DNA of 64,000 bases, from assembly GCA_963559605.1 (NCBI GenBank), contig CAUWLL010000007.1, forward strand, positions 19,966 through 83,965. Direction: 5' to 3'. Position 1 is the stretch's first letter; each line of letters begins with the position of its first letter. The DNA comes from an uncultured Lachnospiraceae bacterium (GTDB lineage Bacteria > Bacillota > Clostridia > Lachnospirales > Lachnospiraceae). Position numbers and translations under genes: made by a program. This document shows positions 10,798 through 34,469 of this stretch, piece by piece. The notes beneath the pieces are model-generated. The model searched no databases, had not been told where the DNA came from, and saw nothing but the letters and a program-made list of their open reading frames with translations.

Positions 10798-11475
10798 ATG
10801 AAACATATCTTAATTGTTGATGATGATATAAATATCGGAAATATGCTGGAAGAAACTTTGACAAAAGAAGGCTATCTCGTGAGCCGCGCCTACTCCGGTA
10901 CAGAAGCGCTTCTTGTACTGAACAACCGGACTCCCGATCTTATCCTTTTAGATCTGATGCTTCCGGGATTAAGCGGAGAAGAAGTGCTGCCTAAAATCAA
11001 AAGTATCCCTGTCATTGTTTTGAGCGCGAAAACAAGCATAGACAACAAAGTACATCTATTACTAAACGGCGCCATGGATTACATGACAAAACCTTTTGAT
11101 ATGAAAGAACTGCTTGCAAGAATCACCGTGCAGCTCCGCAGCGCCTCTCCCGCTCAAAGAACGGCTGATTCCGTATTACGTTTTCAAGAAATCGAAATGA
11201 ATACGGATATTCATACCGTTACCGTATCTAAAGGAGACGTCCATTTAACAAGAACCGAATATGCCATCTTAAAACTGCTCTTAACAAATCCTTCTCAGGT
11301 TATCCCTAAATCACTGATGCTGGAACAGATCAGCGAAGATACCCCTGACTGCATGGAAAGTTCCCTGAAGGTTCATATCAGCAATCTGAGGAAGAAGCTT
11401 CGGACCATAAGCGGCAAAGACTATATTGAAGCGGTCTGGGGCATCGGATTTAAGCTAAAAGAGGAAGATCACTAA
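10798..11475 (+). CDS. OmpR-family response regulator
   Basis: Receiver (IVDDD, DLMLP, KPF) plus winged helix (LKVHISNLRKK, VWGIGF). Confidence 0.93.
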   Translation: MKHILIVDDDINIGNMLEETLTKEGYLVSRAYSGTEALLVLNNRTPDLILLDLMLPGLSGEEVLPKIKSIPVIVLSAKTSIDNKVHLLLNGAMDYMTKPFDMKELLARITVQLRSASPAQRTADSVLRFQEIEMNTDIHTVTVSKGDVHLTRTEYAILKLLLTNPSQVIPKSLMLEQISEDTPDCMESSLKVHISNLRKKLRTISGKDYIEAVWGIGFKLKEEDH

Positions 11476-11478
11476 TAT

Positions 11479-11519
11479 CTTTACATTTTCTTAACGCTTT
11501 CCTTAACCGCTTTCTTAAC
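11479..11519 (+). promoter_or_regulatory. Four CTTAAC-like direct repeats upstream of the ABC gene (probable response regulator sites)
   Basis: CTTTAC at 11479 and CTTAAC at 11490, 11502 and 11514; TAAAAT -10 at 11530-11535. Confidence 0.6.
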
Positions 11520-11567
11520 TTTATCAGATTAAAATATCAGTAACAACTTGAAAGGAGAGCGAAATAT

Positions 11568-12482
11568 ATGAACTACATTCTGACAACAGACGGACTTACT
11601 AAGCAATATAAGCACTTTAAAGCTTTAGATAACTTTTCCATGCATGTCCCAAAAGGCTCTATCTACGGTTTTGTCGGAAAAAACGGCGCCGGAAAGACCA
11701 CCTTGATACGATTGATCTGCGGACTGCAAAATCCTACGTCCGGCGAATACCTTTTATATGGAAAGAAAGGTACAGATAAAGCTATAGCAAAAGCCCGCAG
11801 GCGAATGGGAGCGGTCGTGGAAACACCATCCATTTATCAAAATATGACCGCAAGGGAGAACTTAAGACAACAATTTGACATCTTAGGACTTCCCTCTTAC
11901 GAAGGAATAGACGAACTACTGTCACTCACCGGACTTTCCGACACCGGGAAGAAAAAAGCAAAAGACTTTTCCCTTGGTATGCGCCAACGCCTCGGCATTG
12001 CCATTGCACTTTCCGGAGATCCTGATTTTCTTGTATTGGACGAACCTGCAAATGGCCTTGATCCTCAAGGTATTATTGAGATAAGAGAGCTGATCTTAAA
12101 GTTGAACAAAGAAAGACAGATCACAGTACTTATCTCCAGCCATATTTTAGACGAATTATCCCGTCTTGCCACACATTATGGATTTATCGATCATGGACAG
12201 ATGATAAAAGAAATCAGTGCAAAAGATTTAGAAAGTGCCTGCCGCAAATGTACCAGAATCGAAGTCCGCGATACGCGCCCGCTTGCATATACACTGGACA
12301 AAATGGGCGTGGACTACAATATCCTATCTGATGAGACCGCCGATATTTATGCAAAGATCAATCTCACACAGCTAGCACTTGCACTTGCCGAAGAGTCCTG
12401 TGACATTTACTCTGTGCAGGAAAAAGACGAAAGTTTAGAAAGCTATTACATCAGTTTGCTTGGAGGTGGAAAACATGAGTAG
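11568..12482 (+). CDS. ABC transporter ATP-binding protein (BcrA/lantibiotic-resistance type)
   Basis: GKNGAGKT, FSLGMRQRLG, LDEPANGLD, SSH. Confidence 0.92.
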   Translation: MNYILTTDGLTKQYKHFKALDNFSMHVPKGSIYGFVGKNGAGKTTLIRLICGLQNPTSGEYLLYGKKGTDKAIAKARRRMGAVVETPSIYQNMTARENLRQQFDILGLPSYEGIDELLSLTGLSDTGKKKAKDFSLGMRQRLGIAIALSGDPDFLVLDEPANGLDPQGIIEIRELILKLNKERQITVLISSHILDELSRLATHYGFIDHGQMIKEISAKDLESACRKCTRIEVRDTRPLAYTLDKMGVDYNILSDETADIYAKINLTQLALALAEESCDIYSVQEKDESLESYYISLLGGGKHE

Positions 12483-13320
12483 ATTATTACACGCCGGATA
12501 TTATCGGTTGAGAAAAAACAAATTAACATGGGCATGCCTTATACTGACAATTTCTTACTGCTTATTTATCTATGTTACGCAGTACCACAATATACGGCAA
12601 TATGGAGGCGCTGTTTCTTTAGACCCTTTATTTTTTAATTTTGTAATCTATATGGGCATTCTGACCGCCGTACTGACCAGCCTTTTTATCGGAACGGAAT
12701 ATCACGACGGTACGATCCGCAATAAAATTGTCTGTGGGCTTTCCCGAAACAGTATTTATCTCTCCAACCTCCTGCTCTGCGTTTTTACAGGAACCATCCT
12801 CCTGCTGGTAAGTTTTTTGATCGGACTTTTGGTAGGGATTCCTTTATTCGGAACGTTTACCATGACAACACCGACCTTACTTTCTCTATGTATGATTTCT
12901 CTTTTGTCAACCTGGGCCTACATTTCTATCTTTACGATGGTAACCACGTTAAGTCCCAGCCGGACAACCGCTGCCATACTCAATCTGCTGCTTGCATTTG
13001 GGCTTCTGTTTATCGGTATGATCATACTGAACAAGTTATGCCAGCCGGAATATATCCAGCAAGTAGTCGCCACGCCGGATACCGACGCAATCATTACCGG
13101 AGAAGCAGAACTGGAATGGGTGAAAAATCCGTTCTATCTCACAGGGATGAAACGAGAAATCTATCAGCATCTTTTAGATTTTCTTCCTTCCGGGCAGGTC
13201 ATGCAGATTTTTAACGAAAGCGCAACAAATATTCTCCGAATGATACTGTATTCCTTCTCTATCATTATCGGAACAAATGTCGTGGGACTTCTGCTGTTTC
13301 ATAAAAAAAATATCAAATAA
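12475..13320 (+). CDS. ABC-2 type permease
   Basis: Multiple TM segments and the EYHDGTIRNK motif; ATG overlaps the ATPase stop. Confidence 0.88.
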   Translation: MSRLLHAGYYRLRKNKLTWACLILTISYCLFIYVTQYHNIRQYGGAVSLDPLFFNFVIYMGILTAVLTSLFIGTEYHDGTIRNKIVCGLSRNSIYLSNLLLCVFTGTILLLVSFLIGLLVGIPLFGTFTMTTPTLLSLCMISLLSTWAYISIFTMVTTLSPSRTTAAILNLLLAFGLLFIGMIILNKLCQPEYIQQVVATPDTDAIITGEAELEWVKNPFYLTGMKREIYQHLLDFLPSGQVMQIFNESATNILRMILYSFSIIIGTNVVGLLLFHKKNIK

Positions 13321-13348
13321 CCATTCTGTCATAACACGAGGAACTGTC

Positions 13349-14242
13349 ATGCAAAGTCAAGTTTTAATAGGGGGAATCGCCAGTATATGTCTGCTGACGA
13401 TTCTCATTCTGGCTATAAAATTACATATGATCCGAAAATCTGCGGATGAAATTTCTGAGTCTTTAACAGAACGATTATCGGAGGATACGAATACTCTGAT
13501 CGACATCAGCTCAAAGGACTCCCATATGAGGCATCTTGCGTCCTCGATCAATCAGGAGTTAAAAACTCTGCGCTCGCAAAGGCACAAATTCCAACAAGGC
13601 GATTGGGAGCTCAAAGAAGCTGTCACCAACATTTCCCATGACCTCCGTACGCCATTAACTGCTATTTACGGTTATCTTTCCTTATTAGAGCAAGAAGATG
13701 TTTCTGAAAATGCCGAACGTTATCTTCGTATTATTAAAGAGCGTACAGACACACTGCACTCTTTGACCGAAGAACTGTTCAACTATTCCCTTGTAACGTC
13801 CTCCGATGATCTAACTTTAGAAGAAGTTGTACTGAACAGCCAGCTGGAAGAAACTATTTCTGCTTACTACGCTTCTTTAAAAGGCTGTGGTATTACCCCG
13901 GAAATAACACTCCCGGATAAGAAAGTTGTAAGGACATTAAACAAGAAATCTCTGTCACGGATTTTTGGCAACATTATCAGTAACTGTATCAAATACAGTA
14001 CCGGTGATCTAAAAATCACGCTCACGGAACAAGGAGAAATCACCTTCTCTAACTATGCCCCCGGCTTAGACGAGGTACAGGTAGGACAACTCTTTGAGCG
14101 GTTCTACACCGTTGAAAACGCCAAAAACTCTACCGGACTCGGCTTGTCCATTGCAAAAGCACTCACAGAACAGACAGGCGGTAAAATTACCGCCAATTAT
14201 AAAGGCGGAATCCTCAGCATCCTGCTGATCTTCCGCCCTTAA
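13349..14242 (+). CDS. Intramembrane-sensing histidine kinase
   Basis: NISHDLRTPL H-box, NIISNCIKY, FERFY, TGLGLSIA; short N-terminal TM; start moved to 13349. Confidence 0.92.
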   Translation: MQSQVLIGGIASICLLTILILAIKLHMIRKSADEISESLTERLSEDTNTLIDISSKDSHMRHLASSINQELKTLRSQRHKFQQGDWELKEAVTNISHDLRTPLTAIYGYLSLLEQEDVSENAERYLRIIKERTDTLHSLTEELFNYSLVTSSDDLTLEEVVLNSQLEETISAYYASLKGCGITPEITLPDKKVVRTLNKKSLSRIFGNIISNCIKYSTGDLKITLTEQGEITFSNYAPGLDEVQVGQLFERFYTVENAKNSTGLGLSIAKALTEQTGGKITANYKGGILSILLIFRP

Positions 14243-14281: not shown

Positions 14282-17200
14282 CTACGGCAGCATAATCTCT
14301 TTCCCCAGTGTGAAGGAGTAGATTATCTTTTCTTTGACCTTCTTTCCTGTCAATTGCTCCAATGCTCTGGCGTAGTAATCCAGCTGGCCGTGGTATTTTT
14401 CTACTAATATATTTTCAGAAAATATCTGATCCGTTTTATAATCCAATACCACCAGCCCGTCCGGCTCTTCAAAGTATACGTCGATAATTCCCTGTACCAG
14501 TACTTTCTCCCCAGACATATCGTCCGGGTACACATCCTGCGACGGAATACCGAGGACAAAAGGCTGCTCTCTCCTCAAACCTCCTGTTCCGGCGCTTGCC
14601 TGCATCCGTTTTGCACACGAGCTCTCAAAAAAACGCTTCAGATCTTCCACTTTAATACAAGATGACATCTCTTTGGTAAGCCTGCCGGATTCGCAGAATT
14701 TTTCAATTTCCTTCTCCAAGATCGCACAAGTCTTGTGCTCCTTACCATCCTCTGCTGTGTAGCTCTTTGTAAAATCCAGAAGTTCCAAGATCCGATGATA
14801 TGCCGTACCTCTTGCAGCGCCGCCAAGTTCTTCTTCCTCTTGCAGGAACTTCGGGAGAAGAGGCACAACCTCCGGCTCCTCGTAGAGAAATTCACCTGCT
14901 TCTGTCGCTTCCTCTTTCAGATTTTCTTCTATATAGATACGTTTCTTTAATTCCGACACCGTAAATTTTAACTTCCGTTGCTTACTTTCCTCGTAAGGAT
15001 AACTGTACGCAAACTGTTCCTTTAAAAATTCTTTCACCTCGGGTTCGTATATCTTATTCGTATCCCAATTTCGAAGAACTGCCTTTGTCATCCGTTCTTT
15101 TACTTCCTCTTTTACTTCCCCGTGGATAATATCTTCCACATGAAGCACCCGGACTTCCATAGGGATTTCATCCGTCAGACGTATCATGGCAGGCAGGAGA
15201 AAATCCCAATAGGTCGCCGCCTTACTAAGCTGCAGAAAGGAAAGCTCCTGCTCTTTTCGGCTGCGGATAATATCATAAGCCGCCAGAACCTTCTCCGGCT
15301 CAGAAACCGTTCCGGTAATGATCAGCTTCTCTTTCGCACGGGTAAGGGCTACGTAAAGCACACGCAGTTCTTCCCCCAGACTGTCAAGAGCCTCTTCTTT
15401 CTGTATTGCCTTCTTAACAAGTGTCGGACTTTTTGTCCGCATTTCCAGATGGACTGCATCCATGCCGATCCCCAGCCCGGAATGCAGCACCACGCTACTT
15501 CTGGCATCCTGCATATTGAACCGCTTCCCCATGCCTGCCACAAAGACAATGGGGAACTCCAGACCTTTGCTTTTGTGGATCGTCATCACACGCACCGTAT
15601 CGGACTGCTCATCTTCCACATTTGCCTCTCCGTAATCCACATTGTATTTCTGTAACTCTTCCATATAACGGATAAAATGAAACAGCCCCTTGTAACCGGA
15701 TGATTCAAACGCTCTTGCCTTTTCCGACAGCATCTCAAGATTTGCTTTTCTCTGCAAGCCGCCCGGAAGCATAGACACATAATCTCCGTAGCCCGTATCT
15801 CTGAGGATCTGAAATAACAGTTCGTGCATAGGCGTATACGGCACAATCTCTTTCAGACCTTCCATCGTTCCCATGCACAGCTCCAGCTTTTCTCGTATCT
15901 CTTTCTCTTCCCCCTCAGCACGATATTTCATCACCGCCTCATGAAAAGGCACTTCTTTATATGCACTTTTTATGACCGCAAGCTCTGTCTCATCCAAATT
16001 GCCGATGGCAGAATGAAGAACTGCTGCCAGTGGAATGTCCTGCCTGCGATTATCCAGTACTCTCAGATAATTCAGCAGAACGCCGATTTCCTGTGTGGAA
16101 AAATATCCCTCTCTCGTGCCCGCATATGCCGGAATCCCTTCTGCATTCAACACCTCCGTAAAAACATCCGCGAATCCTTTGATACTCCTTGTCAGAATCA
16201 CAATATCGGAATACCGCACCGGGCGAAGCTCACCCGTTCTCTTATCCGTCACTTGGGCAGATTGGCGCAGTTCCTTTATGCGCCCGGCGATCGCGCGGGC
16301 TTCCAGCTCTCGCTCTGTGGGCTTTTCAAGCCTTTCCCTTTCCGGCATCCAGGCATCCATATCCTTATCGATCACAAGAACTTCCGTCTCATTTTCCGCT
16401 CCATCTTTATAAGATGCCCCCACATAGAGCGCAGCCTCGGCATCGTAAGTGATCCCGCCGAGACTTCTGGTCATAATCTGTCGGAAAATGTAATTCACGC
16501 TATCCAGAACTTCTGCCCTGCTTCGGAAATTTTTATGGAGATCGATACGTTGTGTGACAGAATCTTCGGTACTATATGCGTCAAACTTCTCCATAAAAAG
16601 TTCCGGCCTGGACAGGCGGAAGCGATAAATACTCTGTTTTACATCTCCTACCATGAAAATATTGTACCGGCCCTCAGAAACAGTGGAAATACTGGTCAGG
16701 ATCGTTTCCTGTATCAGGTTACTGTCCTGATATTCATCGATCATAATCTCTGCAAACTGTTCCTGGTATTCCTTTGCAACCGCCGAAGAGACAAACGTCT
16801 CTCCCTCTTTCTCTGTCAGGATCCGTAATGCATACTGCTCCATATCCGAAAAATCAATGACATTTCCGGCGCGTTTTTTCTCCTCAAATGCAGACGCAAA
16901 GGCACGCACCAGATGTGTAAGCTCTTCTGCCATAGGTTTACATCTTTGCATATCCTCTAAAAGCCCCTCCGGTGTATCATAAAAATACTGACTCTTCATA
17001 TCTTTTACCAGTCCTTTGACATCCTCCCGGATCGCCTTCACCTGCGCAATCTTTTCTTCGGACACCGTCTGGTCTTTATTCACCTTCAGACGCGCCCATT
17101 TTACATCCTTCATTTTCTGTGACAGCTCACAATAAGATTGTGACGACTGTAAAGTATCTATGATCTCCACGTCTTTTAATAATACACTCTCATAGACTGC

Positions 17201-17932
17201 CGGACCGTCCGCCTCCTGACAAATAGAGATTCCCTGATGCACCAGCTTCTCTGCATCCTCCAAATACTGTTTTATATTTTTTACGATCAGCTTTATATAC
17301 GCGCTGTTTTCCAACTCCTCTAAAGTTTCTGCCCCATACGCCTGCACACAAGAAACAAGCCATCCGTCTGCGTCCGGATAACTTCTGGAATAATCATAGA
17401 TTTTCGAAACCAGTTCTTCAATCTTCTTATCGCTTTTACCTGTACTGTATGCCGAAGTAAAATCAAGAAATTCCTGTCTTCCCTCTGCATAATGTTCTTC
17501 CAGTACTTCCTCCAGCACATCATGTCTCAGAAGTTTTAACTCTCCCTCTTCGCCGATGCGAAAACCGGGATCCAGAGAAATAGCATGAAAATGATCTTTT
17601 ATCACCGACAGACAAAAACTGTGGATCGTTGTAATCCTGGCATTGTGTATCAGCGTCGCCTGTTGTTTCAAATGCTCGTTATCCGGGTCCTGTTCCAACG
17701 CTTTCTCAATAGCAGTACGGATACGCTCTTTCATCTCTGCTGCCGCCGCTTCTGTAAATGTCACGATCAGCAGCCGATCCACATCCATCGGGTTCTCTCC
17801 CTTTGTCAGCATCGTAATAATGCGCTCCACCAGAACCGCAGTCTTACCGGAACCTGCCGCCGCAGACACAAGAATATTTCGGTCACGAAGATCTATCACT
17901 CTCTGTTGTTCTGTTGTCCATGATACGCTCAT
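14282..17932 (-). CDS. addA: Helicase-nuclease AddAB subunit A
   Basis: AAAGSGKT, IDEYQD, VGDVKQSIYRFR, TIHKSKGLEF, C-terminal QGIID...LDYKTD nuclease. Confidence 0.96.
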   Translation of the reverse strand: MSVSWTTEQQRVIDLRDRNILVSAAAGSGKTAVLVERIITMLTKGENPMDVDRLLIVTFTEAAAAEMKERIRTAIEKALEQDPDNEHLKQQATLIHNARITTIHSFCLSVIKDHFHAISLDPGFRIGEEGELKLLRHDVLEEVLEEHYAEGRQEFLDFTSAYSTGKSDKKIEELVSKIYDYSRSYPDADGWLVSCVQAYGAETLEELENSAYIKLIVKNIKQYLEDAEKLVHQGISICQEADGPAVYESVLLKDVEIIDTLQSSQSYCELSQKMKDVKWARLKVNKDQTVSEEKIAQVKAIREDVKGLVKDMKSQYFYDTPEGLLEDMQRCKPMAEELTHLVRAFASAFEEKKRAGNVIDFSDMEQYALRILTEKEGETFVSSAVAKEYQEQFAEIMIDEYQDSNLIQETILTSISTVSEGRYNIFMVGDVKQSIYRFRLSRPELFMEKFDAYSTEDSVTQRIDLHKNFRSRAEVLDSVNYIFRQIMTRSLGGITYDAEAALYVGASYKDGAENETEVLVIDKDMDAWMPERERLEKPTERELEARAIAGRIKELRQSAQVTDKRTGELRPVRYSDIVILTRSIKGFADVFTEVLNAEGIPAYAGTREGYFSTQEIGVLLNYLRVLDNRRQDIPLAAVLHSAIGNLDETELAVIKSAYKEVPFHEAVMKYRAEGEEKEIREKLELCMGTMEGLKEIVPYTPMHELLFQILRDTGYGDYVSMLPGGLQRKANLEMLSEKARAFESSGYKGLFHFIRYMEELQKYNVDYGEANVEDEQSDTVRVMTIHKSKGLEFPIVFVAGMGKRFNMQDARSSVVLHSGLGIGMDAVHLEMRTKSPTLVKKAIQKEEALDSLGEELRVLYVALTRAKEKLIITGTVSEPEKVLAAYDIIRSRKEQELSFLQLSKAATYWDFLLPAMIRLTDEIPMEVRVLHVEDIIHGEVKEEVKERMTKAVLRNWDTNKIYEPEVKEFLKEQFAYSYPYEESKQRKLKFTVSELKKRIYIEENLKEEATEAGEFLYEEPEVVPLLPKFLQEEEELGGAARGTAYHRILELLDFTKSYTAEDGKEHKTCAILEKEIEKFCESGRLTKEMSSCIKVEDLKRFFESSCAKRMQASAGTGGLRREQPFVLGIPSQDVYPDDMSGEKVLVQGIIDVYFEEPDGLVVLDYKTDQIFSENILVEKYHGQLDYYARALEQLTGKKVKEKIIYSFTLGKEIMLP

Positions 17933-20900
17933 GACTGCTCCTCCTCTGCCTGCATAGCCTGAATGGCTTCTTCCATACTCATCTTTCCAATCTCCCGGTA
18001 ACGGTACCCGGGTATCTTTGTATCAAAGCCACACACATGACGGTAACTGCAATAATCACACCCGCTTTCCTGTCCTCTTCGGTATGGATTTGCAGATACC
18101 TCTCCGTCGAGAATCTGTTCCCTTGTCTTTTCTATCTTCCCGACGGCATAGTTCATCATCGTCTCGAAGGCTTCTGAAGACACTGCCTTGGAAGTTTTAG
18201 AAAGACTTCCATCTTTATTATACTTCACCGGAATGACCGCCGACTCTCCGCTCATACAATGATCCAGATGGTTCAGCACCTCATCTTTCAAATGAATGAT
18301 CCCATCCGGCTTCAACTCTTTTAACACTGCTTCTTCCACCTGTTCCTGTGGCTGCTTCTCTACCAACGGCTCGTTGATCCGGTAATAGAATACCCCGGCA
18401 GGGACAACTTCCTTATCCGCGTGTCGTTTCTCTTGATCCTTCACCGCCGCGTCCATATACACCATAAGCTGTAGCTGTAATCCATGATACAAGGCAGATA
18501 TGTCAAACGCCTTATTTCCCGTCTTGTAATCCAACACTTTTACATAGATTTTATCGCCATCCTCACAAGTATCTACCCGGTCGATCTTACCATTTCCAAA
18601 GCGGAGCTCATACGCACCCGGCTTAAAATCTCCGGCTTCCAGCTGTTTCGTAAGCGCCCACACCGTACAGGTCAGCATCCGCTTCATGCGGACGATCATA
18701 TATTCATTGCGCGCAGAACTGTAAAGCACAGAGTTTCCGTAATCTGTGACTGCCTCCTCCACACTTTCTTCAATATACTGCGCCCGCATTTGCGACGTCA
18801 AGGACGTCCAGCTCTCGTTACTTCTCTCCACCTTTCTTCCAAACCGCTCCAACGCCAGATGGCAGACATTTCCCAGATCCATCGCCTGAAAATCATATTC
18901 CTGCCGTTCCCGAAGTTCCAGTCCGTAAGTCAAAAAGTGTGCAAATGCACAGACGCAGAAACGCTCCATACGGGTAATACTTTTTTCAAATTCTGCCCCA
19001 TACAGCTTTTCTGCCACTGCCTGCGTAAGCTGAGCCGACGGTTTCTTATAATATCCTGCCTGCAAAAATCTTTCTATTTTCTCCTGCCACTTGGGAGAGC
19101 TTCTATACCAGCTATAAAGCTCACACCAGATTTCGTCTAAAGTATTACTCTGAAATCCCCGGATCAGATACTCCATTCCCATCGTTTCTGTAAGCTCCCT
19201 AGCAGTCAGCCATTTTTTCTCTTCATCTTCCGTCACAATCTGAGGATACAGCTTCTGCAAGTCCTGTACCAGATAGGACGGACGGATACTTTTTCCGTCA
19301 GAAGATACCTTGCTATAATAAATATCCAGTTTTTCCGAGGGTTTCGTCAGATTCATATACAGATAAAATTTCTGTACATAAGCTTTTTCCTTTCCCCCTG
19401 ACGATAATGCCAGCTTTTCTTTGCTGAATTTTTCCCGGTCACGTTCGGACAATAATCCGGTGCGAAGCAAAGAACCCGGAAGATACACATCGTTAGCCCC
19501 CACGAACAAGAGCGCTTTTATGTCTTTCAGTCTTGTTCTCTCCATGTCTCCCACAACCACCTGGTCGGCTCCCGGAGGAATCACACCCACTCTTGCTTCC
19601 TCAAGTCCTGCATCCAGAAGTTTACAGTATTCGTTCAAACTGACTGCTTCATCCCCCAGAAGTTCCACAAATTTATCAAACAACTCAATCACGATCCGAT
19701 AAATCTGCGCATACTCTTTGGCAAGGGCAAGTTCTCCGGAGGCTTTAAACTTCTCCTCCTGCGCGGCAAGACGCACTTGCAGATTCTCCCGCACCATAAA
19801 TTCATAAACGGCAACGGTAATGTCCCGCACAGTCTTCTTCCTCTGTTTCAGTACAAACATCAGCGCATCTACTTTTTCCACCAATTCCACACGGCAGTGG
19901 TTCAGCCGTTCCAGCTCTTCCTCTTTCATTCCCTTCAAACGACGTACCCATTTTTCCTGCCAGCGTTTATACCCTTTGATCCCCACACCGATGACGTAAT
20001 TTTCCAGCTCATCTGTCTGCTCATAGGTAAATCCCGCAAGATTGGTCCTCAAAAACCGAAAGACACTCTCATAAGTAAAATTCTGTTCTGCCATATTCAA
20101 AAGGCTTCTCAGATACTCCACAAAAGAATTTAAAAGAATGCTTCTCTTGTGATCCATAAATACCGGAATTTCATACTCTACAGCCGCCTGTTTCAGATAA
20201 TCTCCATAGACCTCCATATCACTTACAATAACGCCAATGTCCCGACACCGGAACCCCTCCTTCCGCAGAAGGCGGCGGACATTTCCCATGGCATCGTAAG
20301 CTTCTTCCTTCGGATTTCTGGCAACATGGAGCCGAATCGTCTCTGCGCTTTCATGCGTTGCATGTCCATACCGAAACAAATTTCTCTCCAAAAAAGCAAG
20401 TTCTTCGTTTTCCCGAAAACGATAAGGAACTTTCCCATACAGTTCCTCCGGCTCTTCTATCTCAATCTTCTCCTTCCTTGCAATGTCCACAAGAGACGTA
20501 ACCATCTGCTTGCTCAGTCCGAAGAGCTGGTACGGATGCCGATATACATACGGATTCTCCCGTTCATCCATGGTAACCGTTACCACCACTTCCCGACATT
20601 GTTTCAAAAGCTCTGCAAGCAAACGGTTCTGCACCGGAGTAAATCCTGTGAATCCATCCAGTACAACTGTACTGTTTTTCAAAAGCTCTGACTGCGTGAC
20701 TACGCGGCTTAACACATCCAGAAGCTCCTCTTTTGTAATATATTTTTCTTCCAGATATTGTGTAAACGCTTCGTATAACAATTTAATATCCTGTAATTTA
20801 TAATAAAGTCTGGAGGTCTCTCCCACAGACTCCATCACTCTTTCCAACTCTTCACTTCCAATATCATACTGGACAAACTCGGAAATGACGGACTTTACTT

Positions 20901-21261
20901 CACTGATATACCCAAGCTTCTTCATATTGCCCCGCAGAACTTTCAAGTCCTTCTCACAATTCCCTGCAATTTTCCTGAGGATCAAGTTTTTTCCCTCATC
21001 ATCCAGAACCGGCAACGCTCCTGCCCCGGTCTCTTCAAACACACGATAAGCAAGACGTGCAAAGCTAAGCACGTCGATATTCATAATGCCGCCCCGGTCA
21101 TGCATGGTTACCAGATCTTTCTGTGTCTGCATGGTAAACTGCTCCGGCACTAATACGATATAATTTCTATCCGGATAACGGATAGACTGCTCGATAACAT
21201 ACCGATATAAAGAATGTGACTTTCCTGACCCCGATGGTCCGAATATAAATTTTAAAGGCAT
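17929..21261 (-). CDS. addB: Helicase-nuclease AddAB subunit B
   Basis: GPSGSGKS, VPEQFT, GKIDRVD...VLDYKTG, QL..Y, Fe-S cysteines (CVC; CDYC...C). Confidence 0.95.
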   Translation of the reverse strand: MPLKFIFGPSGSGKSHSLYRYVIEQSIRYPDRNYIVLVPEQFTMQTQKDLVTMHDRGGIMNIDVLSFARLAYRVFEETGAGALPVLDDEGKNLILRKIAGNCEKDLKVLRGNMKKLGYISEVKSVISEFVQYDIGSEELERVMESVGETSRLYYKLQDIKLLYEAFTQYLEEKYITKEELLDVLSRVVTQSELLKNSTVVLDGFTGFTPVQNRLLAELLKQCREVVVTVTMDERENPYVYRHPYQLFGLSKQMVTSLVDIARKEKIEIEEPEELYGKVPYRFRENEELAFLERNLFRYGHATHESAETIRLHVARNPKEEAYDAMGNVRRLLRKEGFRCRDIGVIVSDMEVYGDYLKQAAVEYEIPVFMDHKRSILLNSFVEYLRSLLNMAEQNFTYESVFRFLRTNLAGFTYEQTDELENYVIGVGIKGYKRWQEKWVRRLKGMKEEELERLNHCRVELVEKVDALMFVLKQRKKTVRDITVAVYEFMVRENLQVRLAAQEEKFKASGELALAKEYAQIYRIVIELFDKFVELLGDEAVSLNEYCKLLDAGLEEARVGVIPPGADQVVVGDMERTRLKDIKALLFVGANDVYLPGSLLRTGLLSERDREKFSKEKLALSSGGKEKAYVQKFYLYMNLTKPSEKLDIYYSKVSSDGKSIRPSYLVQDLQKLYPQIVTEDEEKKWLTARELTETMGMEYLIRGFQSNTLDEIWCELYSWYRSSPKWQEKIERFLQAGYYKKPSAQLTQAVAEKLYGAEFEKSITRMERFCVCAFAHFLTYGLELRERQEYDFQAMDLGNVCHLALERFGRKVERSNESWTSLTSQMRAQYIEESVEEAVTDYGNSVLYSSARNEYMIVRMKRMLTCTVWALTKQLEAGDFKPGAYELRFGNGKIDRVDTCEDGDKIYVKVLDYKTGNKAFDISALYHGLQLQLMVYMDAAVKDQEKRHADKEVVPAGVFYYRINEPLVEKQPQEQVEEAVLKELKPDGIIHLKDEVLNHLDHCMSGESAVIPVKYNKDGSLSKTSKAVSSEAFETMMNYAVGKIEKTREQILDGEVSANPYRRGQESGCDYCSYRHVCGFDTKIPGYRYREIGKMSMEEAIQAMQAEEEQS

Positions 21262-21312: not shown

Positions 21313-22170
21313 TTATACACTTCTTAATTTTTCTACAAATTCATTGCTAAGTGTCAGCTTTGCCACGTAGAATACGTCTCCGGTCATATAGATCGTCCAG
21401 TCGTCCTCTACCTCCACCTGCAGCTCTCCTCCCGGCATATGTACCACGACTTTATTATTGGTCATGCCAAGTCTGTAAGCCACTCCTGCCGCCGCACAGG
21501 CGCCTGTTCCTGATGCCAACGTATATCCTGCGCCACGCTCATAAATTTCAATCGCCAGATTCTCTTTATCGATCACCTTCATGATCTGTGTATTCACACG
21601 GTTCGGGAAATATCTTGCAATCTCTGCATAATCTCCGATCTTCGTTACCAACGGTTTGGAAATCTCTTTCATCGGGATGACACAGTGCGGATTTCCGATA
21701 TTCACACAGGTAACCGGATACAATGTCCTGCCAAAAACCATGTCTTCATTAATGACCTCTCGGCGTTCCCCTGTCATAGGAATGTCGTCACTCCAAAAAG
21801 ATAATTTTCCCATCGATACACGCAGACGGCTTCCGTCCTCATTCAAAAAAGTAACCTCTGTAGGACCGTTGCCTGTATATAATTTAAAGCTTTTTTTCTG
21901 AATATAAGATGCGTCTTTTAAATATTTCGCAAAGATACGCACACCGTTTCCACTGGTTTCGGACTCGCTTCCGTCCGGATTCCATACTTTCACATGCATA
22001 CCGTCATCTTTTAATATCGGACCTTCCAGCACACCGTCTGAACCAAGTCCTGCATTACGATCACAGATAATCTTTACATTCTCCGGCGTCAGCTCTAACT
22101 CATTTTTATTTGGATCAAATACTACATAATCGTTACCCAGTCCATGGTAACGCTCTAATACGACTTTCAT
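21313..22170 (-). CDS. dapF: Diaminopimelate epimerase-family protein with a Ser/Ser catalytic pair
   Basis: HGLGNDY, NPDGS, GNPH and ERG are conserved, but ETSGNG and TLASGTG replace the ExCGNG and TxACGTG motifs. Confidence 0.8.
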   Translation of the reverse strand: MKVVLERYHGLGNDYVVFDPNKNELELTPENVKIICDRNAGLGSDGVLEGPILKDDGMHVKVWNPDGSESETSGNGVRIFAKYLKDASYIQKKSFKLYTGNGPTEVTFLNEDGSRLRVSMGKLSFWSDDIPMTGERREVINEDMVFGRTLYPVTCVNIGNPHCVIPMKEISKPLVTKIGDYAEIARYFPNRVNTQIMKVIDKENLAIEIYERGAGYTLASGTGACAAAGVAYRLGMTNNKVVVHMPGGELQVEVEDDWTIYMTGDVFYVAKLTLSNEFVEKLRSV

Positions 22171-22214
22171 AATCTACCTCCGATCATTGCGGAACTGCTT
22201 ATTATACCTTTCTT

Positions 22215-22243
22215 ATCATAACAGGCATCTATTTCCATTTCAA
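22215..22243 (-). promoter_or_regulatory. SigA-type promoter of the dapF-like gene
   Basis: TTGAAA-N17-TATGAT with extended TG. Confidence 0.65.
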
Positions 22244-22249
22244 GAAGAT

Positions 22250-23485
22250 TTACACTTTATGAAAAATTTCTGCCGGAACATATGCCCTCACAAAGATGCC
22301 ATCCTCTCTGTATTCCTCCGCTTCCAGTTCGCCGTACTTACGGATTGTCTGTATCTTTGCAGCGTCGCTGTAGGGATATGTTTTCTCGAGAAAAACTTTC
22401 CGCTCCCTTAATACCGCCTCGATCGTCTTCGTAAGTTCTTCCAGTCCACTGCCTGTCTTAGCGGAAATCTGCACCGTATAATCCGCCTTAAAATCACGGA
22501 TCACCGGTACACGTTCCAATTTATCCTGCTTATTAAATACGGTAATGACAGGTTTATCTTTCACACCCAGGTTAGAGAGCGTCTCATAAACCGTATACAT
22601 CTGAGCATCCATCTGCGGACTGGAAACATCCACCACATGAAGGATCAGGTCTGCATACTTCGCCTCCTCCAACGTACTTTTAAATGCCTCGATCAGGTGA
22701 TGGGGCAGCTTCTTAATAAAACCTACCGTATCTGTCAGCAAGATTTCCTGTCCCTTAGAAAGAACCAGACTTCTTGTGGTCGGATCTAAGGTGGCAAACA
22801 ACTTATCTTCCGCTAAAATACCGGCTCCGGTCAGTGTATTGAGCAATGTGGATTTCCCTGCGTTCGTATAACCTACGATCGCCGCTACGGGAACCTGATT
22901 TTTACTTCGTCTCTCCCTCGTAACCTTCCGGTGTCTCTTTACTTCTTTCAGCTCCCGGTTCAGCTGTGCAATACGGTTCTTAATAAGACGCCTGTCCATC
23001 TCCAGTTTTTTCTCTCCCGGCCCTCTTGTACCGATGCCTCCGCCAAGTCTTGAAAGAGCGGTACCAAACCCGGTCAATCTGGTCTGCCTATATTTCAGCT
23101 GCGCCAGTTCCACCTGTATCTTTCCCTCTCCTGTAGAAGCTCTTGAAGCGAAAATATCCAGAATGACGAGTGTTCTGTCCATAACCTTCACATCCAGCTC
23201 ATCCTGTAGATTCTTCATCTGCACCGGAGATAATTCGTCATCACAAATAATACCTGTTGCGTCCAATTCCCACAACAGGTCTTTGATCTCCTCCATCTTT
23301 CCTTTTCCCACATAAGTACCTGGATGCGGCTGCTCCCTGCTCTGTATCACATACCCTACAGTTTCTGCTCCCGCGGTCTGCGCCAGTTCTGACAGTTCCT
23401 TTAAAGAATCTTCTGTGTCGTCCTGCCCCGGAAGGCTGACCCCCACAAGAAGCACCCTTTCTGCCGTTTCTTTTAATTCTATCAT
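22250..23485 (-). CDS. hflX: Ribosome-splitting GTPase HflX
   Basis: ILDIFASRA, GPGEKKLE, GYTNAGKST, DTVGFI, NKQD. Confidence 0.96.
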   Translation of the reverse strand: MIELKETAERVLLVGVSLPGQDDTEDSLKELSELAQTAGAETVGYVIQSREQPHPGTYVGKGKMEEIKDLLWELDATGIICDDELSPVQMKNLQDELDVKVMDRTLVILDIFASRASTGEGKIQVELAQLKYRQTRLTGFGTALSRLGGGIGTRGPGEKKLEMDRRLIKNRIAQLNRELKEVKRHRKVTRERRSKNQVPVAAIVGYTNAGKSTLLNTLTGAGILAEDKLFATLDPTTRSLVLSKGQEILLTDTVGFIKKLPHHLIEAFKSTLEEAKYADLILHVVDVSSPQMDAQMYTVYETLSNLGVKDKPVITVFNKQDKLERVPVIRDFKADYTVQISAKTGSGLEELTKTIEAVLRERKVFLEKTYPYSDAAKIQTIRKYGELEAEEYREDGIFVRAYVPAEIFHKV

Positions 23486-31008: not shown

Positions 31009-32481
31009 CTATACCTCAAGAGTAAACCAAAATTCAACTCCATTGTCGTAATTATTCACTCCGTACTCCTGATGAAAAGACTCCATAATCGCTTTCACAA
31101 TAGAAAGTCCGATTCCGTTTCCGCCGTACTCTCTTGTATGTGCCTTATCCACCTTATAAAACTTGTCCCAGATCCGGGGAATATCCTCCTGTGGAATCGG
31201 CGTCCCCGTATTAAACACCGTAACTTTCGCCCGCTCATCCTCTTTCGTGACCTTCACTTCCACAACCATATCACCGTCCAGATGATGAAATGCATTGCTT
31301 ACATAATTACGGATCACCTGCTCTGTTTTAAATTCATCCGCCCACACATATACCGACTCTGGCTGCCGGAAGATCACCTTCGCCTCTTTTTGCTGTGCCA
31401 GAATCTCCATACTTTGTAACACACCGCGGATAAGGCCTGTCAGATCAAACCGCTCAAACGCAATCTCATCTCCGCCAAACTCCAGTTGGTTCAAGGTCAA
31501 CAGGTTTTTCACCATCTGGTTCATCTTATCCGCTTCGTCCATAATAACGTCACAGTAAAACTCCATACTCTCCCTGTCGCATGCAACCCCGTCCTTCAAC
31601 CCTTCCGCATAGCCTTGGATCAGCGCAATAGGCGTCTTTAATTCATGAGAGACGTTCCCCATAAAATCATTGCGCATTTGCTCCAGCTTCTCTTTCTGCT
31701 CAATATCCTTCCGAAGGTTGTTGTTGGCGCTTTTCAGCTCGGAGATCGTCCTCTCCAATTTTCCGGACATCCGGTTAAAATTCGCCCCAAGCTCCCCGAT
31801 TTCATTTTGACCGCCGCTTGTATATTTCACTTCAAAATCCAGATTCGCCATCCGATCAGAAAGTACCGCAAGCTCCCGTATGGGATCGGTCAGTTTCTTA
31901 GAAAAATACCATACAAGCACTATACTTACAACAATCGCCGCACTCCCGATATAAATAAGAAAACGATTGGACAGCATAGCGCTCTCTTTGATGCTTTCCA
32001 GTGGGCTTCGAATCAGAAAATGACTTCTGTCATCCAGAATCCCCCACATCTCAATATAATCCGTCTGCGTCCACGGATCCTTTGCCTGACTGATCTGGTA
32101 CGTGTCTGTACTTTCCAATATCCTGTTGTTTTTCTGCGCCTGATTCAACAAATATCCCATCAGCTGCTTCCGAAGAACGTCCATGTCGTGAACGTTGGTA
32201 ATCACACCCATATCCTCTTCTCCATTATTATTAATGACAAGAAAAGAGAGATTATTTCTCTCCGCCATTCCCCGGAGTTCTTCCGAAATATCAGTGGAAC
32301 AGGCCGTTCCTTCTGTCATCGCCTGATTCAGGCTCTCATACATACGGATGAATTTGGTCTCTTTGTTCTTCACATAAAAGGAACTCAGATAATTCGCATT
32401 AACAACAAACAGGACAAGAAAGACACAAAGAATCAGTCCAAGGAACATTACTATCATCTGACGCTTGATCGAACGTTTCAT
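31009..32481 (-). CDS. HAMP-domain sensor histidine kinase
   Basis: Two TM, HAMP, NVSHELKTPIA, FYKVDKA, GNGIGLSI. Confidence 0.93.
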   Translation of the reverse strand: MKRSIKRQMIVMFLGLILCVFLVLFVVNANYLSSFYVKNKETKFIRMYESLNQAMTEGTACSTDISEELRGMAERNNLSFLVINNNGEEDMGVITNVHDMDVLRKQLMGYLLNQAQKNNRILESTDTYQISQAKDPWTQTDYIEMWGILDDRSHFLIRSPLESIKESAMLSNRFLIYIGSAAIVVSIVLVWYFSKKLTDPIRELAVLSDRMANLDFEVKYTSGGQNEIGELGANFNRMSGKLERTISELKSANNNLRKDIEQKEKLEQMRNDFMGNVSHELKTPIALIQGYAEGLKDGVACDRESMEFYCDVIMDEADKMNQMVKNLLTLNQLEFGGDEIAFERFDLTGLIRGVLQSMEILAQQKEAKVIFRQPESVYVWADEFKTEQVIRNYVSNAFHHLDGDMVVEVKVTKEDERAKVTVFNTGTPIPQEDIPRIWDKFYKVDKAHTREYGGNGIGLSIVKAIMESFHQEYGVNNYDNGVEFWFTLEV

Positions 32482-32484
32482 CTT

Positions 32485-33162
32485 CTATATCACCTCAAAC
32501 TTATAACCCATGCCCCAGATGGTCTTGATGTAGTTTCCCTTTTCTCCCAATTTACTTCTTAGTTTCTTCACATGGGTATCGATCGTTCTTGCATCTCCAA
32601 AATAGTCATAATTCCACACATTATTTAGAATCTTCTCTCTGGAAAGAGCAATTCCCTGATTTTCCACAAAATATGTCAGAAGTTCAAATTCTTTAAAACT
32701 CAGATCAACCGTTTCCGTTCCAATCCTTACCGTATGAGCCGCCTTATCAATGAGGATCCCTCCTGCATCCACGGACGCTTCGCTGTCCGCGCCCCTGCTT
32801 CTTCTAAGCACTGCCTCCACTCTGGCAACCAGGATCTTCGGACTGAACGGCTTGGAGATGTATTCGTCCACGCCAAGTTCAAACCCCTGCAGCTCATCCC
32901 GCTCATCCCCACGTGCCGTCAGCATGATGATCGGAACCTTGGAATTCTGTCGTACTTCCCGACACACCTGCCAGCCATCCATCTTCGGCATCATAATATC
33001 CAAAATCAAAAGGTCAATCCCCTTATTTTCATAAAAAATCTCCATCGCCTCAAGACCGTCTCCTGCCTCCAGCACATAGTATCCTGCCCGTTCCAGAAAA
33101 TCCCGGACTAATTTCCGCATTCTGCTCTCATCATCTACGATCAATATCTTCGTCTTATCCAT
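32485..33162 (-). CDS. OmpR-family response regulator
   Basis: IVDDE, DIMMP, KPFS, RTIDTHVKKLR. Confidence 0.94.
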   Translation of the reverse strand: MDKTKILIVDDESRMRKLVRDFLERAGYYVLEAGDGLEAMEIFYENKGIDLLILDIMMPKMDGWQVCREVRQNSKVPIIMLTARGDERDELQGFELGVDEYISKPFSPKILVARVEAVLRRSRGADSEASVDAGGILIDKAAHTVRIGTETVDLSFKEFELLTYFVENQGIALSREKILNNVWNYDYFGDARTIDTHVKKLRSKLGEKGNYIKTIWGMGYKFEVI

Positions 33163-33294
33163 GACCTGCCTCCACCTGAAATCTGATTCTCCTATTTTCT
33201 GCCTTTCATCTTACCAGACAAATATGTCAGAACTGTGAACACAGGGCGGTCTTAGAAGCATTTGAAAACACGGACATCTGAGAGCCTATTTTCA

Positions 33295-34452: not shown

Positions 34453-34469
34453 AACTTCACCTTCCTCTG

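What the first reader, a model, noticed from the sequence alone, without database searches (positions are those of the whole stretch)
21313..22170. DapF-fold enzyme with both catalytic cysteines replaced by serine
Seen: ETSGNG (Ser codon AGT, 21952-21954) and TLASGTG (Ser codon TCA, 21511-21513). The DAP-binding residues are retained: GND, NPDGS, GNPH, the Asn of VNTQ, and ERG. The gene has its own SigA promoter. Established: DapF uses two Cys thiolates (C73/C217 in H. influenzae numbering), and in the related proline racemase family replacing a Cys with Ser/Thr changes the reaction. TCA is two changes from any Cys codon, so this is not a simple sequencing error. Inference: this is either an oxidation-resistant Ser/Ser epimerase or an enzyme with a different reaction or substrate (a DAP analogue or other wall amino acid).
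Basis: partly seen in the sequence, partly recalled or inferred. Interest (0 to 1): 0.66.

Follow-up and report, generated by a model that had tools for sequence, protein, structure and literature searches.

The report
Thiol-free paralog of diaminopimelate epimerase
This gut-bacterium gene encodes a second, extremely conserved copy of the cell-wall and lysine enzyme DapF in which both catalytic cysteines are serines; it belongs to a large, apparently unstudied family that databases simply label as ordinary DapF.

Summary
ORF 21313-22170 (-) encodes a 285-aa DapF-fold protein. Ser73 (AGT) and Ser220 (TCA) sit exactly where the two catalytic cysteines belong, and every diaminopimelate (DAP)-binding residue is kept. 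This is neither an error nor a one-off.

- **Family:** 115 of the 150 best 50%-identity cluster representatives are Ser/Ser. They come from many phyla and split cleanly from Cys/Cys DapF. Two further changes co-vary: Cys79 to Ile and Glu213 to Tyr (H. influenzae numbering).
- **Paralogy:** in the window's lineage (Lachnospiraceae near Dorea) it is a paralog. At least 20 related assemblies also carry a canonical Cys/Cys dapF, usually next to dapL.
- **Constraint:** the Ser/Ser copy evolves more slowly than the canonical one. Against the closest genome it shows 103 synonymous and 2 non-synonymous codon differences. Metatranscriptome contigs cover it.
- **Contexts elsewhere:** Ser/Ser genes sit in a dapB-dapA-X-dapL-like operon of reduced endosymbionts, are fused to LysA, MurE or Alr, or lie in natural-product clusters.

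No paper on natural Ser/Ser DapF was found. My best guess (0.4) is a thiol-free DAP epimerase isozyme. The rivals are a DAP-binding non-enzyme and a different reaction. A sister clade has Thr or Asn at site 2, which argues against a classic two-base mechanism.

The parts
21313..22170 (-). ORF of 285 aa: DapF-fold protein of the Ser/Ser subfamily
   Evidence: AF2 model pLDDT 94.9. Foldseek TM 0.89-0.91 to cyanobacterial DapF 9mro.
21952..21954 (-). Codon AGT = Ser73, at the position of catalytic Cys73 (H. influenzae numbering)
   Evidence: Invariant Ser in 205 Ser/Ser-family sequences. The model helix starts at residue 74.
21511..21513 (-). Codon TCA = Ser220, at the position of catalytic Cys217
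   Evidence: It is Ser in Dorea-like genomes, and Thr or Asn in the Faecalicatena/Mediterraneibacter sister clade. The model helix starts at residue 221.
21934..21936 (-). Codon ATC = Ile79. Canonical DapF has a conserved third Cys here (CGNGxRC).
   Evidence: Ile in 98-100% of Ser/Ser sequences, Cys in 99% of Lachnospiraceae Cys/Cys sequences and 6 of 7 diverse ones.
21523..21525 (-). Codon TAT = Tyr216. Canonical DapF has Glu here (ERGAGET).
   Evidence: Tyr in 89-100% of Ser/Ser sequences, Glu in the Cys/Cys sequences. Invariant in all Lachnospiraceae copies.
22177..22181 (-). GGAGG ribosome-binding site, 6 nt before the ATG
   Evidence: Read directly from the sequence.
22215..22243 (-). 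Promoter-like site TTGAAA-17-TATGAT (TG-extended) in the hflX/ORF spacer
   Evidence: The number of such sites in the region is no higher than in shuffles, so this is a plausible position only.
22250..23485 (-). Context only: hflX immediately upstream, same strand
   Evidence: TIGR03156, 479.8 bits. The TPR-hflX-X-addB order is conserved in about 45 of 71 related loci.
17929..21261 (-). Context only: addB (then addA at 14282-17932) immediately downstream, same strand

Best explanation
The gene encodes a thiol-free member of the DapF family: a second, strongly constrained DapF-like protein beside the organism's canonical Cys/Cys DapF. The most likely working is as follows. The two pseudo-symmetric domains close around LL- or meso-diaminopimelate using the same ligand residues as DapF. 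The alpha-proton is then exchanged without thiolates, either by the two helix-N-terminal hydroxyls (Ser73, Ser220) or by waters that these polar side chains position. The family-specific Tyr216 may help. That would make it a DAP epimerase isozyme with altered acid/base chemistry. Shown: the fold, the intact pocket, the Ser/Ser signature, membership of a distinct ancient subfamily, paralogy with a canonical dapF-dapL locus in relatives, very strong purifying selection, coverage by metatranscriptome contigs, and the dap-pathway contexts of other family members. Inferred: that DAP is the ligand, and that any proton transfer occurs.
For: All DAP-contacting residues are invariant: N13, N64, G74/N75, N160, N193, E211/R212 and G221/T222. 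Ser at site 1 is 100% conserved over sequences only about 46% identical to each other, and it is encoded by both AGY and TCN codon classes, which indicates long selection for the hydroxyl. Family contexts point to meso-DAP supply. One is the overlapping operon dapB-dapA-Ser/Ser-(LL-DAP aminotransferase-like) in Ca. Bandiella numerosa, in the complete 1.13-Mb genome of Ca. B. euplotis, and on a third roughly 1.3-Mb contig whose protein is 83% identical. Others are fusions to LysA (three separate 50% clusters, two scoring 360 and 410 bits on TIGR01048), to meso-DAP-type MurE (8 members) and to alanine racemase (4 members). The window protein has the same active-site signature as these members. 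Constraint is strong. There are 103 synonymous and 2 non-synonymous codon differences against the closest genome, with 99.3% amino-acid identity compared with 91% for HflX and 88% for AddB. Omega is about 0.04 against 0.13 for the canonical copy. The Ser/Ser copy is the more conserved one in 159 of 171 genome pairs. Metatranscriptome contigs cover 21530-22146.
Against: Cys-to-Ser mutants of canonical DapF-fold racemases are described as hindered in catalysis (PMC11602996; PMC12039745). In the sister clade of the same Lachnospiraceae orthogroup, site 2 is Thr or Asn while everything else stays invariant, and Asn cannot be an acid/base. Relatives already have a canonical dapF beside dapL, so a second epimerase is not obviously needed. 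The window gene has no dap, lys or mur neighbours, and no riboswitch was found. I could not show that any genome has the Ser/Ser gene as its only dapF. No biochemical data exist.
Confidence: 0.4

Rival explanations
1. It is a ligand-binding pseudoenzyme. The protein still closes on DAP or a close analogue but does not epimerise it. It would act as a sensor, a buffer, or a protein partner, for example of the canonical DapF dimer or of another enzyme, much as E. coli DapF binds and activates RppH independently of catalysis.
For: Cys-to-Ser mutants are catalytically hindered. The Ser to Thr to Asn drift at site 2 fits a hydrogen-bonding role rather than a proton-transfer role. A canonical dapF-dapL locus is present in relatives. 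In 6 loci the Ser/Thr copy and the Cys/Cys copy are adjacent on the same strand. The Ser/Ser copy is more conserved than the enzyme paralog, as expected if surfaces are also constrained. Solved RppH-DapF complexes show that the fold is used as a regulatory partner (6d13 and 6vck).
Against: Pseudoenzymes rarely keep one specific residue (Ser) at a dead catalytic site in 100% of a family this diverse. The dap-operon position in reduced endosymbionts and the fusions to LysA and MurE are easier to explain by catalysis. Family members inside biosynthetic clusters suggest enzymes.
Confidence: 0.3
2. It is an enzyme with a different reaction or substrate. Examples are one-base chemistry such as elimination, dehydration, hydration or tautomerisation on a DAP-pathway intermediate like tetrahydrodipicolinate/2-amino-6-oxopimelate, or epimerisation of a DAP/lysine analogue. 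This would parallel the proline racemase family, where Cys to Thr turns an epimerase into a dehydratase.
For: There is precedent: the Cys-to-Thr 3-hydroxyproline dehydratases and the unidirectional Thr/Cys Asp/Glu racemases (PMC8142540). Family members lie in natural-product clusters. One is ferredoxin - heme-oxygenase-like oxidase - Fe/2OG oxygenase - ThiF-like - GntC/VioD-like PLP enzyme - ArgC-like - Ser/Ser - ArsN1-like acetyltransferase in Pseudomonas and Paraburkholderia. Others are an NRPS cluster in Streptomyces and a heme-oxygenase-like neighbour in Archangium. One member lies beside a peptidase S51 and a dipeptide-epimerase-like gene. The taxa that carry the family overlap with those I recall using the DapL route, which is my own recollection and was not tested.
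Against: Both the distal and the proximal amino-acid binding residues of DapF are unchanged, so the ligand should be DAP itself or something nearly isosteric. The LysA and MurE fusions point to meso-DAP as the product. The cluster-type members differ from the window protein by an extra Cys three residues before site 1, so they may be a specialised offshoot.
Confidence: 0.2
3. It is an artefact or a decaying gene: a sequencing error, or a pseudogene copy of dapF.
For: None beyond the missing cysteines.
Against: The ORF is intact. The same two serines appear in hundreds of independent assemblies. Omega is about 0.04, with 103 synonymous and 2 non-synonymous differences against the nearest genome. 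The same DNA is present in 20 public runs. Transcript contigs cover the gene.
Confidence: 0.01

Closest known systems
Diaminopimelate epimerase DapF (EC 5.1.1.7; PF01678, TIGR00652), e.g. H. influenzae 1BWZ/2GKE, Anabaena 9MRO
   Same: The length and two-domain fold are the same (TM 0.89-0.91). The HMM score is above the trusted cutoff. All DAP-contacting residues are kept, and the two active-site residues sit at the N-termini of the two central helices.
   Different: Both catalytic Cys are Ser. The third conserved Cys (CGNGxRC) is Ile. The Glu of ERGAGET is Tyr. The protein forms a separate clade only about 36% identical to Cys/Cys DapF, and in this lineage it is not next to dapL.
Engineered C73S and C217S mutants of H. 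influenzae DapF (2Q9H, 2Q9J) and C67S/C209S mutants of F. nucleatum HisR
   Same: Ser replaces the thiol at the same positions. These mutants are among the best sequence and structure matches.
   Different: They are single mutants in a canonical background and are described as catalytically hindered. The natural family has both positions changed, plus co-varying residues and long-term selection.
Natural Cys-to-Thr variants of cofactor-independent racemase folds: trans-3-hydroxy-L-proline dehydratase (proline racemase family), EcL-DER and MMP0739 (Asp/Glu racemase family)
   Same: A hydroxyl residue naturally replaces a catalytic Cys in a two-base racemase scaffold, with altered reaction outcome (PMC8142540). 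The related folds are recovered by Foldseek.
   Different: Those keep one Cys. Here neither thiol remains, and the substrate pocket is unchanged rather than remodelled.
BelM/HrmT, the 'DAP epimerase' genes of the belactosin and hormaomycin clusters
   Same: [quoted passage not shown] The Ser/Ser genes of Pseudomonas, Paraburkholderia and Archangium have similar neighbours.
   Different: Their function is untested, and I could not read their sequences, so I do not know whether they are Ser/Ser. The window gene is not in such a cluster.
DapF2 (Alr2-like PLP-dependent DAP epimerase of Staphylococcus)
   Same: It is an alternative, non-canonical solution for the DapF step, recently confirmed by complementation.
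   Different: It has an unrelated fold (the alanine racemase family) and depends on PLP. It is not a homolog of the window protein.

Membership tests
DapF, diaminopimelate epimerase (TIGR00652 / PF01678) | Profile score above the curated cutoff over the full length | tested here: met
   TIGR00652 scores 236.2 bits (cutoff 114.65) over residues 7-271. PF01678 scores 170.7 bits with two stretches. The canonical paralog of relatives scores 306.6 bits.
DapF, diaminopimelate epimerase (TIGR00652 / PF01678) | Two pseudo-symmetric alpha/beta domains with two central helices pointing end-on into the cleft | tested here: met
   The AF2 model has pLDDT 94.9 and pTM 0.90, with helices starting at residues 74 and 221. 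Foldseek gives E 1.5e-33 and TM 0.89/0.91 to 9mro_A.
DapF, diaminopimelate epimerase (TIGR00652 / PF01678) | DAP-binding residues (Hi numbering: N11, N64, G74, N75, N157, N190, E208, R209, G218, S/T219) | tested here: met
   All are present and invariant in the 71 Lachnospiraceae copies aligned, and at least 98% conserved in the diverse Ser/Ser set.
DapF, diaminopimelate epimerase (TIGR00652 / PF01678) | Two catalytic cysteines (Cys73, Cys217) acting as thiolate base and thiol acid | tested here: not met
   Ser73 and Ser220 occupy these positions. No other Cys is specific to the subfamily: Cys36 and Cys163 also occur in Cys/Cys DapF.
DapF, diaminopimelate epimerase (TIGR00652 / PF01678) | Genomic association with the DAP/lysine pathway | tested here: inconclusive
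   It is not met in the window, where the neighbours are hflX and addBA and no dap genes occur in 64 kb. In relatives the dapL neighbour belongs to the Cys/Cys copy. It is met for other Ser/Ser members through the Bandiella dapB-dapA-X-aminotransferase operon and the LysA and MurE fusions.
DapF, diaminopimelate epimerase (TIGR00652 / PF01678) | LL-DAP to meso-DAP epimerase activity | not testable with these tools
   This needs an enzyme assay or complementation.
Ser/Ser DapF-like subfamily (defined here) | Signature xxSGNGxRI ... ERGAGYTxASG, with clustering apart from Cys/Cys DapF when the signature columns are masked | tested here: met
   The window has ETSGNGVRI and ERGAGYTLASGTG. An NJ tree of 117 Ser/Ser and 28 Cys/Cys non-redundant sequences, with the 4 signature columns masked, separates the groups with no exception. 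The Cys/Cys sample is biased towards Lachnospiraceae.
Proline-racemase-type Cys-to-Thr dehydratases (considered as an analogy only) | One retained catalytic Cys plus Thr at the other site, and a hydroxyproline-type pocket | tested here: not met
   No catalytic Cys is retained and the pocket is DapF-type. These structures match only at TM about 0.6-0.75 and 12-15% identity.

The most novel reading that the evidence does not exclude
The Ser/Ser clade is a bona fide, widespread DAP epimerase family, and in some lineages the only DapF. It would remove an amino-acid alpha-proton with no thiolate and no cofactor, using hydroxyl- or water-mediated chemistry, possibly assisted by Tyr. That would be a new catalytic solution in cofactor-independent racemases. 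It would also be insensitive to the thiol-directed DapF inhibitors.
Probability: 0.35. Interest if true: 0.85.

Novelty: new variant of a known kind. Interest (0 to 1): 0.68.

Why it matters
DapF is a textbook two-thiol enzyme and a long-standing antibiotic target. A large natural family that keeps the whole DAP pocket but has no thiols is today annotated as 'diaminopimelate epimerase' by the standard equivalog model. There are two possible consequences. If the family is active, it shows that alpha-deprotonation of an amino acid can be done in this fold without cysteine, which bears on mechanism, inhibitor design and biocatalysis. If it is not active, then many genome annotations and metabolic reconstructions of lysine and cell-wall synthesis are wrong at this step, including those for gut Lachnospiraceae, Verrucomicrobiota, Planctomycetota and Chloroflexota. 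In that case the fold would have an unrecognised second role, such as a DAP sensor, a protein partner, or a natural-product tailoring enzyme. The question can be tested directly with a few proteins and existing assays.

Tried and rejected
- **Sequencing error or pseudogene:** rejected.
- **Conserved operon for the diverse Ser/Ser genes:** in 61 loci from many phyla, no neighbour family recurs in more than 7 loci, and none of the recurrent ones is dap-related. There is no general operon signal.
- **Lysine riboswitch or other RNA element** separating the regulation of the two paralogs: there are no Rfam hits in the window, and only tRNAs near the canonical copies.
- **'GNDY' Tyr and Cys36 as Ser/Ser-specific substitute catalytic residues:** rejected, because both also occur in Cys/Cys DapF.
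- **Compensating acid/base in the Thr and Asn variants:** none was found. Only Q195E and conservative changes appear.
- **Direct proof that the window's own genome has a Cys/Cys dapF:** not obtained. The window has none. The 80-locus limit hid the closest assembly. The canonical genes are only about 70% identical at DNA level, so no specific search pattern could be designed. The only hint is that metagenome X1 has a contig of matching depth (15.3 against 15.6) that resembles the dapF-dapL locus of Dorea CAG:317 at about 80%.
- **Sole-copy status** of the Ser/Ser gene in any genome could not be tested, because no whole-genome access was available.
- **Roseburia context:** it gave no functional hint, with the trp operon on one side and argS on the other.
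- **Literature:** ten full-text searches found no description of natural Ser/Ser DapF. Only open-access papers and bioRxiv were searched.
- **'DapF2' in the literature** turned out to be an unrelated PLP enzyme.

Full report
**1. The observation**

The minus-strand ORF 21313-22170 starts with ATG and encodes 285 aa. Reading the sequence gives ETSGNG with Ser codon AGT at 21954-21952, and TLASGTG with Ser codon TCA at 21513-21511. The protein matches PF01678 at 170.7 bits. It matches the NCBIfam equivalog TIGR00652 'DapF' at 236.2 bits, where the cutoff is 114.65.

Its best PDB sequence matches are all DAP epimerases, with E values down to 4e-50. In those alignments Ser73 and Ser220 stand exactly opposite the catalytic Cys pair. 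Fittingly, the engineered C73S and C217S mutants of H. influenzae DapF are among the top hits.

An AlphaFold model has pLDDT 94.9 and pTM 0.90. Its two central helices start at residues 74 and 221, so both serines sit at helix N-termini as the cysteines do. Foldseek gives TM 0.89/0.91 to the cyanobacterial DapF 9mro. The DAP ligands are all present: N13, N64, G74/N75, N160, N193, E211/R212 and G221/T222.

The promoter claim is weaker. A TG-extended TTGAAA-17-TATGAT site and a GGAGG lie in the 79-nt gap after hflX. However, such sites are no more frequent here than in shuffled sequence, and no terminator separates the gene from hflX.

**2. It is a family, not an accident**

All 120 closest database proteins (74-87% identical; Hespellia, Faecalicatena, Muricomes and other Lachnospiraceae) have Ser at site 1. 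At site 2 they have Ser, Thr or Asn.

A search of 1.84 billion cluster representatives returned 150 best hits. Of these, 115 are Ser/Ser, with identities down to about 35%, and the usual motifs are EKSGNG and TLASGSS.

It returned Verrucomicrobiota, Planctomycetota, Chloroflexota, Desulfobacterota, Myxococcota, SAR324, Acidobacteriota, Armatimonadota, Bacteroidota and Proteobacteria. Named members also occur in Pseudomonas, Paraburkholderia, Streptomyces, Archangium, Chroococcidiopsis, Orenia and Ca. Bandiella.

I compared 205 Ser/Ser sequences with 86 Cys/Cys sequences. Four positions are conserved within each group but differ between them:
- Ser73 against Cys.
- Ile79 against the third Cys of CGNGxRC.
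- Tyr216 against the Glu of ERGAGET.
- Ser220 against Cys.

The DAP ligands are shared by both groups. With those four columns masked, an NJ tree of 145 non-redundant sequences separates the two groups without exception. The caveat is that the Cys/Cys sample is mostly Lachnospiraceae. Both Ser codon classes (AGY and TCN) occur at each site across the family, which speaks for old and sustained selection for Ser.

**3. In the window's lineage it is a paralog**

The closest genome locus is L001, an uncultured Dorea sp. from mouse gut. It is only 83% identical in DNA over 6.8 kb, so the window comes from an unnamed related species. The window itself holds no second dapF.

In some relatives a 277-aa canonical DapF (EMCGNG ... 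ETLACGTG) lies right after the Ser/Thr copy on the same strand. Using it as a query, canonical dapF genes were found in at least 20 assemblies that also carry the Ser/Ser gene (searches compared). Examples are the complete chromosome of Mediterraneibacter glycyrrhizinilyticus f23, Dorea sp. CAG:317, UMGS566, MGBC130654, and Faecalicatena contorta ET51 and ET55.

The canonical copy scores 306.6 bits on TIGR00652. In 28 of 75 loci it is followed by dapL (TIGR03542, 604 bits). It is therefore the biosynthetic epimerase of the DapL route. The Ser/Ser copy has its own conserved setting, TPR-hflX-X-addB-addA, in about 45 of 71 loci. Roseburia has a 50%-identical Ser/Ser paralog in yet another housekeeping setting.

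For the window's own genome I have only a hint of a canonical copy. Metagenome X1 contains a contig of matching depth that resembles a dapF-dapL locus.

**4. Constraint and expression**

Between the window and L001 the gene differs at 105 codons, of which 103 are synonymous and 2 are not. The protein is 99.3% identical, while HflX is 91%, AddB 88% and the TPR protein 80%.

Across Lachnospiraceae the median omega is about 0.04 for the Ser/Ser copy and 0.13 for the canonical copy. dS is near saturation, so these values are rough. In 19 genomes that hold both copies, the Ser/Ser proteins are on average 83% identical and the canonical ones 74%. The Ser/Ser copy is the more conserved one in 159 of 171 genome pairs.

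Contigs of a gut metatranscriptome cover 21530-22146 at 99% identity or more. Some DNA carry-over in that library cannot be excluded.

**5. What other family members do, judged by context**

- **Reduced endosymbionts.** In Ca. Bandiella numerosa, in the complete 1.13-Mb genome of Ca. B. euplotis, and on a third roughly 1.3-Mb contig whose protein is 83% identical, the Ser/Ser gene lies in a tight, partly overlapping operon. The order is dapB, dapA, Ser/Ser gene, then an aminotransferase. That aminotransferase best matches LL-DAP aminotransferase models but scores below their cutoffs.
- **Fusions.** Ser/Ser domains are fused to DAP decarboxylase LysA. Two of the fusions score 360 and 410 bits on TIGR01048 (cutoff 298), and a third is a fragment. 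They are also fused to meso-DAP-type MurE (433.6 bits, cutoff 373, 8 cluster members), to alanine racemase (4 members on 7 or more contigs), and to a GGACT domain and a methyltransferase.
- **Natural-product clusters.** In Pseudomonas koreensis and in Paraburkholderia the gene sits in a conserved cluster: ferredoxin, heme-oxygenase-like oxidase, PF10014 Fe/2OG oxygenase, ThiF-like, GntC/VioD-like PLP enzyme, ArgC-like reductase, Ser/Ser gene, ArsN1-like acetyltransferase. The P. syringae-group protein is 87% identical to the P. koreensis one, but I did not fetch its context. In Streptomyces goshikiensis the gene is in an NRPS cluster, and in Archangium it is next to a heme-oxygenase-like gene. 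This recalls belM and hrmT, untested 'DAP epimerase' genes beside BelK/HrmI and BelL/HrmJ. These cluster-type members carry an extra Cys three residues before site 1.
- **Possible recycling cluster.** One member is followed by a peptidase S51 gene and a dipeptide-epimerase-like gene.
- **No general operon.** Across 61 diverse loci no neighbour family recurs in more than 7 loci.

**6. Mechanism**

The dap operon and the LysA and MurE fusions argue that core family members supply meso-DAP, which means they would be epimerases. The window protein has the same active-site signature as those members. I therefore rank 'thiol-free DAP epimerase isozyme' first, at 0.4.

Three observations argue against it:
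- Cys-to-Ser mutants of DapF-fold racemases are described as hindered in catalysis.
- The lineage already has a canonical DapF.
- In the Faecalicatena/Mediterraneibacter sister clade, site 2 is Thr or Asn while every ligand residue and Ser73, Ile79 and Tyr216 remain invariant. Asn cannot shuttle protons.

The last point leaves three readings. Proton transfer could be water-mediated, with the side chain only positioning the water. The chemistry could need only one base. Or the protein could bind its ligand without turning it over.

The rivals are therefore a DAP-binding pseudoenzyme or protein partner (0.3) and a different reaction or substrate (0.2). The first has a precedent for non-catalytic use of the fold in the E. 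coli DapF-RppH complexes listed. The second has the Cys-to-Thr dehydratases as precedent.

**7. Known or new**

A 2021 review of racemase mechanisms lists only Thr/Cys exceptions to the two-Cys rule. [quoted passage not shown] The 'DapF2' of Ashniev et al. and of the GapMind preprint is an unrelated PLP enzyme.

Ten full-text searches found no account of natural Ser/Ser DapF. Subscription-only literature was not searched.

I classify the finding as a new variant of a known kind. The gene fails one defining feature of DapF, the catalytic cysteines, and meets the others. It should not be filed as an ordinary DapF until it has been assayed.

Noticed in passing
L074:3001-4806, L075, L076, L161 (adjacent); L077 and L162 (about 2 kb apart): In Schaedlerella, Mediterraneibacter agrestimuris and related MAGs, the Ser/Thr DapF-like gene and the canonical Cys/Cys dapF lie on the same strand. 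They are next to each other or 2 kb apart, and two tRNA genes follow. This may be an operon, or a hint that the two proteins work together.
   Followed up: partly
L241:2638-8989, L242, L244:2898-9422, L245: A conserved cluster occurs in Pseudomonas koreensis and Paraburkholderia: ferredoxin, heme-oxygenase-like oxidase (PF14518), Fe/2OG oxygenase (PF10014), ThiF-like, GntC/VioD-like PLP enzyme, ArgC-like reductase, Ser/Ser DapF-like, ArsN1-like N-acetyltransferase. It looks like a pathway for a toxic non-proteinogenic amino acid with acetylation as self-protection. It resembles the belK-belL-belM / hrmI-hrmJ-hrmT triad.
   Followed up: partly
L243:133-10075: In Streptomyces goshikiensis a Ser/Ser DapF-like gene sits inside an NRPS cluster: C-A-PCP, luciferase-like oxygenase, class III aminotransferase, A-MT-PCP, then an MFS exporter.
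   Followed up: no
L246:685-4331, L252:4402-8044, L256:3410-7048: Ca. Bandiella (Midichloriaceae) endosymbionts carry dapB-dapA-(Ser/Ser DapF)-aminotransferase as a tight operon surrounded by transposases. It may have been acquired as a unit. In L256 dapA is split into 62-aa and 228-aa pieces, which is either a frameshift or an assembly error.
   Followed up: partly
P0145, P0157, P0186, P0152, P0158, P0231, P0172, P0236: Natural fusions of the Ser/Ser domain exist with LysA, MurE, alanine racemase, a GGACT-like domain and a SAM methyltransferase. The MurE and Alr fusions recur on several contigs.
   Followed up: partly
P0348, P0188, P0351, P0430, P0352, P0353, P0360: The Ser/Ser members found in secondary-metabolite contexts have a Cys three residues before the site-1 Ser (DGSxCxxSGNG). 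That position corresponds to substrate-contacting Val70 of H. influenzae DapF. It may be a relocated catalytic thiol in that offshoot. The window protein has Ser there.
   Followed up: no
L257:5001-8187: A Ser/Ser gene overlaps the start of a peptidase S51 gene and is followed by a split MR_MLE (dipeptide-epimerase-like) gene. This could be a murein-peptide recycling cluster.
   Followed up: no
L250: A record titled 'Thermoguttaceae bacterium LCP21S3_D1' (Planctomycetota) carries a protein 95% identical to the Roseburia Ser/Ser protein. It is probably a mislabelled or contaminated assembly.
   Followed up: no
window:24037-28695: Two heavy-metal P-type ATPases (620 and 770 aa) lie back to back on the minus strand upstream of the TPR-hflX genes.
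   Followed up: no
window:35156-41963: This is a run of signalling genes: a dCache methyl-accepting chemotaxis protein, a GGDEF protein, a GGDEF-EAL protein and a PilZ protein. An ECF sigma/anti-sigma pair and a two-component system lie next to them (31009-34961).
   Followed up: no
window:2353-6307 and 10798-14242: The first stretch is a cell-division hydrolase module: FtsE, FtsX, a PcsB-like M23 peptidase and a CtpB-like S41 protease. The second is a lantibiotic-protection-type ABC transporter with a VanS-like histidine kinase.
   Followed up: no
P0234 (Ca. Solincola), P0241, P0247, P0268: A few representatives have mixed or odd states (Ser/Cys, Thr/Cys, or Ser/Ser) while grouping with Cys/Cys sequences in a rough tree. 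Cys loss may therefore have happened more than once outside the main Ser/Ser clade.
   Followed up: no
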